Made by a program: the position numbers. This document shows positions 61,801-64,000 of a stretch of 64,000 nt of DNA, piece after piece (the stretch's first letter is position 1; every line of letters starts with the position of its first letter). Source of the DNA: Escherichia coli (GTDB lineage: Bacteria > Pseudomonadota > Gammaproteobacteria > Enterobacterales > Enterobacteriaceae); NCBI RefSeq assembly GCF_009931435.1, contig NZ_CP043414.1, one strand, 5' to 3'.

Positions 61801-64000
61801 CGTGCTGTTGGCCGGTTGTTCCAGTAATGCGCAGTATAATAGCAGTGCATCGGGCAATGTCGGCACCGCCTGGGGTGGGGATGTGCACTCAACGGTTCAG
61901 GGCGTATCTGCTGAACGAGCCTGGCGCGATCCGGCAGAGATGATCGTTATTAGTTATTCGACTAATGTTCCTTCCGGCTACGACCGCGTTTATAGCATTC
62001 GTATTAACGAACTTGAATATGCTATTCGCGATGGTAATTTTAATTCTCTACCTATTACGCGGGTTTATAATTCATCAGGTAAAGAACTACGCTATATAGT
62101 CCATGCCAGAGTAGGAATGAATTACCAATTATATGTCCGCAATTACAGTCGTAACACCAACTACGAGATCGTTGCGACAGTTGATGGCCTGGATGTTCTC
62201 AATGGTAAACAAGGTTCCCTGAATAACAACGGCTATATTGTGAATGCCGGGGATTCGTTGGCGATTAAAGGATTCCGCAAAGATAAACATACCGAAGCGG
62301 CTTTTCAGTTCGCCAACGTTGCGGATTCCTACGCAGCCAATTCGGCGCAAGGCGATGTGCGTAATACCGGTGTAATTGGCTTTGCAGCTTTCGAATTGCA
62401 AGGCCCGGCGCAAAACACGCTGCCGCCGTGCTCTGGACAAGCCTTCCCGGCAGATAACAATGGCTATGCGCCGCCACCGTGTCGGAAATAGTAACCTCGC
62501 TTGATGCCTCGCCCATTTAAGGCGATAATTAGCACAAAATTGTGTTTCGCAAATCCAACCCTTCCTCGTCGGGCCTAACGACGCGGAAGGGTTTTTTTAT
62601 ATCGACTTTGTAATAGGAGTCCACCCATGAGCACCTTAGGTCATCAATACGATAACTCACTGGTTTCCAACGCCTTTGGTTTTTTACGCCTGCCGATGAA
62701 CTTCCAGCCGTATGACAGCGATGCTGACTGGGTAATTACCGGCGTGCCGTTCGATATGGCCACTTCTGGTCGTGCGGGTGGACGCCACGGTCCAGCGGCG
62801 ATCCGTCAGGTTTCGACGAATCTGGCCTGGGAACACAACCGCTTCCCGTGGAATTTCGACATGCGCGAGCGTCTGAACGTGGTGGACTGTGGCGATCTGG
62901 TGTATGCCTTCGGCGATGCTCGTGAGATGAGCGAGAAGCTGCAGGCGCATGCTGAAAAGCTGCTGGCTGCCGGTAAGCGTATGCTCTCCTTCGGTGGTGA
63001 CCACTTTGTCACGCTGCCACTGCTGCGTGCTCATGCGAAGCATTTCGGCAAAATGGCGCTGGTACACTTTGACGCCCACACCGATACCTATGCGAACGGT
63101 TGTGAATTTGACCACGGCACTATGTTCTATACCGCGCCGAAAGAAGGTCTGATCGACCCGAATCACTCCGTACAGATTGGTATTCGTACCGAGTTTGATA
63201 AAGACAACGGCTTTACCGTACTGGACGCCTGCCAGGTGAACGATCGCAGCGTGGATGACGTTATCGCCCAGGTGAAACAGATTGTAGGTGATATGCCAGT
63301 TTACCTGACTTTTGATATCGACTGCCTGGATCCTGCTTTCGCGCCGGGCACCGGTACGCCGGTGATCGGCGGCCTGACCTCCGATCGCGCCATTAAACTG
63401 GTACGTGGCCTGAAAGATCTCAACATTGTTGGGATGGACGTAGTGGAAGTGGCTCCGGCATACGATCAGTCGGAAATCACCGCTCTGGCAGCAGCGACGC
63501 TGGCGCTGGAGATGCTGTATATTCAGGCGGCGAAAAAGGGCGAGTAATTCGCTAAATATTTCCCGGTGTGCATAGTCATGCCGGGAAACATTCATCAGTG
63601 CGATATATGTTTTTATATTTCTACGCGACTTTTTCTTAGCTCTGTTCACCTGCCTGGTTGTTTCAGAACATAAGTAATATTTAAAACACGAATATTCAGA
63701 AACCAGATTGTCACAAGGAATATTAATTCTTCCCGGTAGTTCTCATTCTTACGTTTACAAATAGTGTATGTTCTGAACAACTATTGTTTTTTAAGCGGTA
63801 AAGAAATGAGACGGATTGATGTTATTTGCAAGGAGCTGGAGCGACTGACGTATGGGCTGGAACTGTCTGATTTAGCGAAGGAGAAAGCATTTACTGCTGA
63901 GGCGATTGGTTTTAACCTTGGGCTGGCACGTAACTCGGTTAGTAAAGATCTTAATCAATTATGGAATGAAGGCCTGGTGGTAAAAAGTCAGGGACGTCCT

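What the first reader, a model, noticed from the sequence alone, without database searches (positions are those of the whole stretch)
63548..64000. AT-rich spacer and unexpected regulator-like gene start downstream of speB
After speB there is an AT-rich stretch of about 250 bp and a new ORF start (MRRIDVICKELERL..., with HTH-like features) continuing off the window, where I would expect the loiP/yggG neighbourhood from K-12. This could be the edge of another accessory insertion, for example a regulator with a sugar-utilization cassette.
Basis: inference. Interest (0 to 1): 0.3.

Follow-up and report, generated by a model that had tools for sequence, protein, structure and literature searches.

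The report
Start of known D-glucosaminate utilisation island
The gene start after speB is the 5' end of dagR, the known sigma-54 activator that heads a seven-gene D-glucosaminate uptake and breakdown cassette carried by about one in ten E. coli strains between speB and loiP, so the feature is real but ordinary and already annotated.

Summary
Observation confirmed. speB ends at 63547. A 258-bp spacer follows (63548-63805, 34.9% GC against 52% for the window). An ATG at 63806 opens MRRIDVICKELERL..., which runs off the window after 65 codons. The last 601 bases are 100% identical to E. coli 2020CK-00188. There the ORF is the 932-aa dagR gene, which scores 1517 bits against NCBIfam's DagR equivalog (cut-off 1400). 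Downstream lie a conserved sigma-54 promoter, four mannose-family PTS genes, dgaE and dagF, and then loiP.

The 7,630-bp island replaces, stop codon to stop codon, the repeat-filled 205-bp speB-loiP spacer of K-12. It is present in 562 of 5,426 complete E. coli genomes, always as one full-length chromosomal copy at this site. Its proteins are 85-97% identical to Salmonella's characterised DgaR-DgaABCDEF (DagR 87.8%), which sits at a different chromosomal site.

The system, and its patchy presence in E. coli, are already published and annotated.

One small unexplained item remains. About 80 bp upstream of dagR, including the palindrome TGTTCTGAACA, travels with the cassette across genera and has no assigned function.

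The parts
62627..63547 (+). speB (agmatinase). This is the conserved core gene that forms the left flank of the island. K-12 homology ends at its stop codon.
   Evidence: ORF list; RefSeq annotation of the matching genomes; blastn against K-12 ends at L001 16148, which is window 63547.
63548..63725 (+). speB-proximal part of the AT-rich spacer. It is junction sequence private to island-carrying E. coli, with no counterpart in K-12, in the other empty-site alleles, or upstream of dagR in other genera.
   Evidence: Found only at this locus and only in the 562 island-carrying genomes. No similarity to the K-12, ST131 or JNE25-001 spacers. Not alignable with dagR upstream regions elsewhere. No Rfam match.
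63560..63587 (+). Stem-loop just after the speB stop codon (11-bp stem, 6-nt loop, TTCCCGGTGTG/CATGCCGGGAA). It has no following T-run, so it is not a canonical intrinsic terminator. It may be a 3' end or stabilising structure for the speB transcript.
   Evidence: RNA fold of 63540-63610: -23.7 kcal/mol, z = -3.2 against shuffles. The terminator scan found no canonical site.
63726..63805 (+). Cassette-borne dagR upstream region, presumably its promoter, any operator and the ribosome-binding region. Conserved blocks are ATTCTTCCCG (63726-63735), TTCTCATTCTTACG (63740-63753), AATAGTGTATGTTCTGAACA (63760-63779, containing the perfect palindrome TGTTC-T-GAACA at 63769-63779) and GGTAAAGAA just before the ATG.
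   Evidence: Alignments of dagR upstream regions from seven loci in different chromosomal contexts. blastn homology to the Salmonella cassette starts at island position 213, about window 63760. No consensus sigma-70 promoter was found, and only weak 8-of-12 candidates appear in a relaxed scan.
63806..64000 (+). First 65 codons of dagR (also called dgaR), cut by the window end. This is the N-terminal DNA-binding (winged-helix-like) part of a 932-aa LevR-type sigma-54 enhancer-binding protein.
   Evidence: 100% DNA identity to dagR of 2020CK-00188. The full protein scores 1517 bits on NF047795 DagR, cut-off 1400. Pfam finds Sigma54_activat and PRD. 51 of 65 residues are identical to the Salmonella DgaR N-terminus.

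Best explanation
Window 63548-64000 is the left edge of the E. coli D-glucosaminate (dga) islet. The ORF starting at 63806 is dagR (dgaR), a LevR-type bacterial enhancer-binding protein.

By orthology with Salmonella, DagR binds upstream of the sigma-54 promoter of the next gene. It uses ATP hydrolysis in its AAA+ domain, which contacts sigma-54 through the GAFTGA loop, to open the promoter complex and turn on dgaABCD-dgaE-dagF. Its C-terminal PRD/EIIA-like module reads the state of the PTS. HPr~P phosphorylation activates it, which gives catabolite control. Phosphorylation by the cognate EII inhibits it when no substrate is being transported. D-glucosaminate uptake therefore relieves the inhibition.

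The products import D-glucosaminate as the 6-phosphate (DgaABCD), deaminate it to 2-keto-3-deoxy-6-phosphogluconate (DgaE, a PLP-dependent lyase), and cleave that to pyruvate and glyceraldehyde-3-phosphate (DagF).

The AT-rich spacer has two parts. About 180 bp is junction sequence private to E. coli and carries a speB 3' hairpin. About 80 bp is the dagR upstream control region that travels with the cassette.

Shown here: gene identity, island content and boundaries, promoter conservation, distribution, and orthology to the Salmonella system. Inferred: that the window's own genome continues in the same way beyond 64000, and that regulation and substrate are as in Salmonella.
For: The window's last 601 bases are identical to E. 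coli 2020CK-00188, where the ORF is annotated dagR. The spacer is identical too.

Full-length DagR scores 1517 bits on the NCBIfam DagR equivalog (cut-off 1400). DgaE scores 690 (cut-off 600) and DagF 352 (cut-off 300). Pfam finds Sigma54_activat, PRD, EIIA-man, PTSIIB_sorb, EII-Sor, EIID-AGA, SelA-like and KDGP_aldolase in the expected order.

DagR motifs are present: Walker A GASGVGKT at 141, GAFTGA at 194, Walker B LLLDE at 215, IAHG (His580) and a PRD2 His870.

The sigma-54 element TGGCACGTCCTTTGCT lies in the dagR-dgaA spacer. It is conserved, with its upstream GTGACACAAATT block, in seven loci including Salmonella.

Protein identities to the Salmonella locus, which encodes the exact PDB 7LC0 enzyme, are DagR 87.8%, DgaA 85.2%, DgaB 91.3%, DgaC 96.8%, DgaD 96.9%, DgaE 85.9% and DgaF 84.6%.

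The island is in 562 of 5,426 complete genomes, always one full-length chromosomal copy. The dagR 5' end next to speB is seen in 561.

Mechanism and pathway are taken from PMC4987338 (a review citing Miller et al. 2013) and PMC9529869. Variable presence of the pathway in E. coli lineages is reported in PMC13001218.
Against: The window stops after 65 codons, so the rest of dagR and the cassette are not seen in this genome.

The window's lineage is only 98.8% identical over 12 kb to its nearest complete genome.

One of the 562 islands has an internal deletion, with 94% coverage and the regulator annotated only generically. One genome has an interrupted spacer.

No consensus sigma-70 promoter for dagR was found.

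The N-terminal HTH and the EIIA-like module match Pfam only below threshold.

Nothing about function in E. coli was tested here. I did not read the primary Salmonella paper, which is not held.
Confidence: 0.95

Rival explanations
1. The ORF encodes a different LevR-like sigma-54 activator, for example a GfrR-type fructoselysine/glucoselysine regulator or an STM0571-type protein, controlling a mannose-family PTS for another substrate.
For: Mannose-family PTS operons with LevR-like activators share the same general layout, and Salmonella has three of them (PMC4987338). The four PTS subunits match only generic subfamily models, all below their equivalog cut-offs.
Against: DagR, DgaE and DagF each exceed the dga-specific equivalog cut-offs. 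[quoted passage not shown] The His163 residue of that enzyme is conserved.
Confidence: 0.02
2. In the window's own genome, the island beyond position 64000 is truncated, disrupted or carries different cargo, so the ORF start is a remnant and not a working regulator gene.
For: The window ends at codon 65. Its lineage is not represented exactly among complete genomes (best 98.8% over 12 kb). Rare damaged copies exist, one with 94% coverage and one with an interrupted spacer.
Against: 561-562 of 562 genomes that have the speB-dagR junction carry the island at 94-100% coverage. The 453 bases visible here are identical to an intact copy.
Confidence: 0.03
3. The cassette is not an insertion into a K-12-like ancestor. 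It is an old resident of the speB-loiP site that most E. coli lineages have lost, with REP repeats later filling the gap.
For: All 562 copies are at the same site, single copy, with no mobility genes, no duplicated junction and near-genomic G+C (53.5% against 51-52% for the flanks). Copies in other E. coli differ from this one by about 2%, similar to the 2.8% divergence of the flanking core genes. That pattern fits long residence plus homologous exchange. Empty sites differ widely in length (47, 205 and 429 bp).
Against: Only about 10% of genomes carry it. Salmonella and other genera have the cassette at unrelated sites (yicS side of SPI-3, and others), which shows that it moves between chromosomal sites. 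No outgroup Escherichia species was examined. This rival concerns history only and does not change what the feature is.
Confidence: 0.3

Closest known systems
Salmonella enterica dgaR-dgaABCDEF (D-glucosaminate PTS and catabolic operon; Miller et al. 2013, as summarised in PMC4987338 and PMC9529869)
   Same: Same seven genes in the same order. Proteins are 85-97% identical, with the regulator at 87.8%. The sigma-54 promoter TGGCAC-N5-TTGCT has the same conserved upstream block. The same ~45-bp conserved element lies upstream of the regulator gene.
   Different: The chromosomal site differs: yicS | dga | rpn-EamA-mgtCB in Salmonella against speB | dga | loiP in E. coli. Salmonella has a REP-like insert between the sigma-54 promoter and dgaA (218-bp spacer against 118 bp). 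The E. coli version is present in only about 10% of strains. Function in E. coli was not tested here.
Bacillus subtilis LevR and the lev (fructose/mannose-family PTS) operon
   Same: Same regulator architecture: N-terminal DNA-binding domain, central sigma-54 AAA+ domain and C-terminal PRD/EIIA-like regulatory module. Same logic: dual control by HPr and the cognate EII over a sigma-54-dependent mannose-family PTS operon (PMC4987338; domains).
   Different: Distant in sequence. Firmicute relatives of DagR are about 30-42% identical. The substrate and the catabolic enzymes differ.
Salmonella GfrR-gfrABCDEF (fructoselysine/glucoselysine)
   Same: A LevR-like sigma-54 activator next to a mannose-family PTS and two catabolic enzymes (PMC4987338).
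   Different: According to the review, GfrR lacks the HPr-target histidine and escapes catabolite repression. DagR here keeps the IAHG histidine and matches the DagR model, not another family.

Membership tests
DagR/DgaR (LevR-type sigma-54 activator of the dga operon) | Full-length match to the curated equivalog model NF047795 above its cut-off | tested here: met
   1517.2 bits against a cut-off of 1400, covering residues 1-932. This was tested on the protein of L001, whose first 65 codons and upstream spacer are identical to the window.
DagR/DgaR (LevR-type sigma-54 activator of the dga operon) | Central sigma-54 interaction AAA+ domain with Walker A, Walker B and the GAFTGA loop | tested here: met
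   PF00158 at 138 bits, residues 112-270. GASGVGKT at 141-148, GAFTGA at 194-199, LLLDE at 215-219.
DagR/DgaR (LevR-type sigma-54 activator of the dga operon) | C-terminal PTS regulation module (PRD domains plus an EIIA-Man-like domain with phosphorylatable histidines) | tested here: met
   PRD at 54-57 bits with two stretches. The EIIA-man match is only sub-threshold (16.2 bits against 21.4) but carries the IAHG motif at 578-581. A PRD2 histidine is at 870. Phosphorylation itself is not testable here.
DagR/DgaR (LevR-type sigma-54 activator of the dga operon) | N-terminal winged-helix DNA-binding domain (the only part that lies inside the window) | tested here: inconclusive
   Only sub-threshold Pfam matches at residues 22-68: TrmB 20.8-21.8 bits (cut-off 25.6) and HTH_Crp_2 17.7-21.3 bits (cut-off 27). 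No structure was predicted.
DagR/DgaR (LevR-type sigma-54 activator of the dga operon) | Located directly upstream of a sigma-54 promoter and dgaABCD-dgaE-dgaF | tested here: met
   Gene order in L001 and L002. TGGCACGTCCTTTGCT lies 64 bp after the dagR stop codon and is conserved in seven loci. For the window's own genome this is inferred from 562 of 562 genomes.
DagR/DgaR (LevR-type sigma-54 activator of the dga operon) | Orthology to the experimentally characterised Salmonella protein | tested here: met
   87.8% identity over 932 aa to the regulator of the Salmonella locus that encodes the exact 7LC0 DgaE sequence.
DagR/DgaR (LevR-type sigma-54 activator of the dga operon) | D-glucosaminate-dependent, RpoN-dependent activation and growth on D-glucosaminate | not testable with these tools
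   Needs growth and expression experiments in an island-carrying E. coli strain.
Classical mobile genomic island (integrase-mediated, tRNA-associated) | Integrase or transposase gene, flanking direct repeats or att sites, insertion next to a tRNA gene, atypical G+C | tested here: not met
   All seven genes are metabolic or regulatory. No shared sequence or duplicated junction with the empty-site alleles. The flanks are speB and loiP, not a tRNA gene. G+C is 53.5% against 51-52% for the flanks. It is better described as a stop-to-stop replacement indel, that is, a metabolic islet.

The most novel reading that the evidence does not exclude
The ~80-bp non-coding block upstream of dagR (63726-63805) moves with the cassette across at least five chromosomal contexts and several genera. 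Its core, AATAGTGTATGTTCTGAACA with the perfect palindrome TGTTC-T-GAACA, is conserved more tightly than the coding sequence around it. This could be an undescribed operator, for example for autoregulation by DagR or for a global regulator. The 2016 review lists the DgaR binding site as not known, so the palindrome could give a first handle on how expression of the regulator itself is set.
Probability: 0.3. Interest if true: 0.2.

Novelty: already known. Interest (0 to 1): 0.08.

Why it matters
It matters little beyond correct annotation. The cassette lets a strain use D-glucosaminate as a carbon and nitrogen source. It is one of many patchily distributed nutrient-niche modules in E. coli. A 2026 study already lists the pathway as a marker of the STc95 ExPEC lineage (PMC13001218). 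For the genome scan, the useful outcome is that the break in K-12 synteny at the window end is explained by a known, annotated metabolic islet, not by something new. The only loose thread is the conserved palindrome-bearing leader of dagR.

Tried and rejected
- Rfam scan of 61500-64000 at permissive E-values found nothing, so the AT-rich spacer holds no known RNA family.
- Consensus sigma-70 promoter and intrinsic terminator scans of 63400-64000 found nothing. A relaxed scan gave only 8-of-12 candidates that are not conserved.
- I looked for insertion scars (shared sequence, duplicated target, REP remnants) between the island ends and three empty-site alleles and found none.
- I tested whether the E. 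coli-private part of the spacer is a repeat or mobile-element remnant. It occurs only at this locus.
- I checked for a third gene cassette at the speB-loiP site (ST131 and JNE25-001). There are only different numbers of REP-like repeats.
- I considered the longer 946-aa gene call from GTG 63764. I rejected it because the extension is in a different frame relative to the conserved DNA block in another genus.
- I at first took L006 (89% DagR, yicS context) to be Salmonella. Its DgaE is only 87% identical to 7LC0, so I rejected that. The hit labelled Salmonella Choleraesuis (P0058/L012) lacks dgaE/dgaF and was also set aside. The true Salmonella locus was recovered by an exact look-up of the 7LC0 sequence.
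- The primary paper (PMC3754740) is not held, so the mechanism is cited from the review.
- I did not run the large genome or metagenome collection scans. The cost was not justified for an already-annotated system.

Full report
**What is in the sequence**

speB occupies 62627-63547 on the + strand. It is followed by 258 bp of non-coding DNA (63548-63805) at 34.9% G+C. The whole window is 52.0% G+C and speB is 55.3%. Only 1.6% of 258-bp windows in the 64-kb sequence are as AT-rich or more.

An ATG at 63806 opens MRRIDVICKELERLTYGLEL..., which runs for 65 codons to the window end. The only refinement is that the ORF starts at 63806. An in-frame GTG at 63764 is used in some automatic gene calls to give a 946-aa product. 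It is not supported, because the extra codons fall in a different frame relative to the conserved DNA block in another genus.

**What the ORF is**

The last 601 bases of the window are 100% identical to E. coli strain 2020CK-00188 and about 97.7% identical to some 560 other complete genomes. In all of these the gene after speB is annotated dagR.

In 2020CK-00188 (locus L001) the ORF runs for 932 codons. It is followed by genes for PTS IIA, IIB, IIC and IID of the mannose family, then dgaE and dagF, and only then loiP, tkt and cmtBA. E24377A has the same layout.

The full protein scores 1517 bits against NCBIfam's DagR equivalog model (cut-off 1400). DgaE scores 690 (cut-off 600) and DagF 352 (cut-off 300). 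Pfam finds the sigma-54 interaction domain and a PRD domain in DagR, and the expected domains in the six downstream products.

DagR carries the following motifs:
- Walker A (GASGVGKT, 141-148)
- the sigma-54 contact loop GAFTGA (194-199)
- Walker B (LLLDE, 215-219)
- an EIIA-Man-like segment with the IAHG histidine (578-581)
- a histidine in the C-terminal PRD (870)

The 65 residues inside the window give only sub-threshold winged-helix matches (TrmB 20.8 bits against 25.6).

**Relation to the characterised system**

An exact look-up of the 7LC0 sequence retrieved the Salmonella locus, which reads yicS | regulator-IIA-IIB-IIC-IID-DgaE-DgaF | rpn, EamA, mgtC, mgtB. Against that locus the E. coli proteins are 87.8% (DagR), 85.2%, 91.3%, 96.8%, 96.9%, 85.9% and 84.6% identical, in the same order.

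A canonical -24/-12 element, TGGCACGTCCTTTGCT, lies 64 bp after the dagR stop codon. It is conserved at the same place, together with an upstream GTGACACAAATT block, in all seven loci examined, including Salmonella.

The mechanism is taken from the literature. DgaR is a LevR-like enhancer-binding protein that is activated by HPr~P and inhibited by EII-dependent phosphorylation when D-glucosaminate is absent. It drives sigma-54-dependent transcription of dgaABCDEF (PMC4987338). DgaABCD import and phosphorylate D-glucosaminate. The DgaE lyase makes 2-keto-3-deoxy-6-phosphogluconate, and the DgaF aldolase yields pyruvate and glyceraldehyde-3-phosphate (PMC9529869). The primary paper was not available.

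**Boundaries and distribution**

Against K-12, homology ends exactly at the speB stop codon and resumes exactly at the loiP stop codon. The 7,630 bp between them (L001 16149-23778) replace K-12's 205-bp spacer.

That K-12 spacer is made of a dispersed repeat. The K-12 junction query hits a median of 13 places per genome, and part of it recurs after tkt. From my own knowledge its sequence is REP/BIME-like.

Other empty sites are 47 bp (JNE25-001) and 429 bp (ST131), differing in repeat copy number. No sequence is shared between the island ends and any empty allele. There is no duplicated junction and no integrase or transposase, and G+C is near the genome average. This is therefore a replacement-type islet, not a classical mobile island.

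The island occurs in 562 of 5,426 complete E. coli genomes, always once, on the chromosome and essentially full-length. The speB-dagR junction occurs in 561. This is the basis for inferring that the window's own genome continues in the same way.

Variable presence of the D-glucosaminate degradation pathway among E. coli lineages has been published: 100% of STc95, none of STc131, STc73 or STc14, and 26% of other B2 strains (PMC13001218).

DagR-named orthologues at 67-89% identity occur in Pantoea, Erwinia, Superficieibacter, Raoultella, Klebsiella, Serratia and others. The cassette sits in a different neighbourhood in each locus inspected, so it has moved between chromosomal sites as a unit.

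**Anatomy of the spacer**

The spacer has two parts.

The speB-proximal ~180 bp (63548-63725) is found only in island-carrying E. coli and nowhere else in those genomes. It begins with a stable hairpin (63560-63587; z = -3.2) that lacks a T-run.

The dagR-proximal ~80 bp (63726-63805) is conserved upstream of dagR in every Enterobacteriaceae context examined. Its core is AATAGTGTATGTTCTGAACA (63760-63779), which contains the perfect palindrome TGTTC-T-GAACA. Next comes the GGTAAAGAA-ATG start region.

No consensus sigma-70 promoter is detectable and no Rfam family matches. I take this block to be the cassette's own promoter or operator for dagR. Its function is unassigned, and the review lists the DgaR binding site as unknown.

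**Verdict**

The feature is a known, named and routinely annotated system, so novelty is 'already known' and interest is low.

Residual uncertainty is limited to three points:
- what lies beyond the window end in this particular genome, which is very likely the intact cassette
- whether the site was gained or lost during E. coli history
- the role of the conserved leader element

Noticed in passing
window 61760-62491 (+): A 243-aa ORF with a lipoprotein-type signal (MKKWKVRSALVALVVLLAGCSS...) sits between speA and speB. K-12 has only about 60 bp of unrelated sequence there. It is annotated 'hypothetical protein', is present in 3,550 of 5,426 complete E. coli genomes independently of the dga island, and matches no Pfam or NCBIfam family.
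   Followed up: partly
window 63760-63779 (palindrome at 63769-63779): AATAGTGTATGTTCTGAACA upstream of dagR is almost invariant in seven dga loci from different genera and chromosomal contexts, while the surrounding non-coding DNA is unalignable. The perfect palindrome TGTTC-T-GAACA occurs once per locus. It is a candidate operator with no known binding protein.
   Followed up: partly
window 63560-63587 (+): A stable 11-bp-stem hairpin lies 13 nt after the speB stop codon, with no following T-run. It is specific to island-carrying E. coli, whereas K-12 has REP-like repeats at that position.
   Followed up: partly
window 52000-64000: The window's lineage is unusual among complete E. coli genomes. 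The best match is 98.8% (strain 2020CK-00188, human rectal swab) and all others are about 97.2% or less over 12 kb of core genes. The same strain is the only one with an island 99% or more identical to the reference copy.
   Followed up: no
L013 7106-7323 and L009 8800-9059 (dgaR-dgaA spacers): Salmonella and a related enterobacterial locus carry a REP-like insert (GCCGGATAGCGGCGTAAACGCCTTATCCGGCCTAC...) between the sigma-54 promoter and the dgaA start. This lengthens the leader from 118 bp in E. coli to 218-260 bp.
   Followed up: no
L001 19176-19205 (last 10 codons of dagR, about 120 bp upstream of the expected dgaA transcription start): TTTATATCTACGA at the 3' end of dagR is invariant at the DNA level in six loci whose proteins are only 68-89% identical. 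It lies at the distance where an enhancer site for the sigma-54 promoter would be expected. This could be coincidence or an overlapping DagR binding site.
   Followed up: no
L001 27026-27934; L004 12814-13722 (outside the window): A prohibitin-family gene lies between tkt and cmtB in 2020CK-00188 and ST131 but is absent in K-12 and E24377A. This is another small presence/absence polymorphism in the same neighbourhood.
   Followed up: no
L001 3023-4002 (about window 50420-51400): yggR (PilT/PilU-family ATPase) is annotated as frameshifted in the nearest complete genome. I did not check whether the window shares the frameshift.
   Followed up: no
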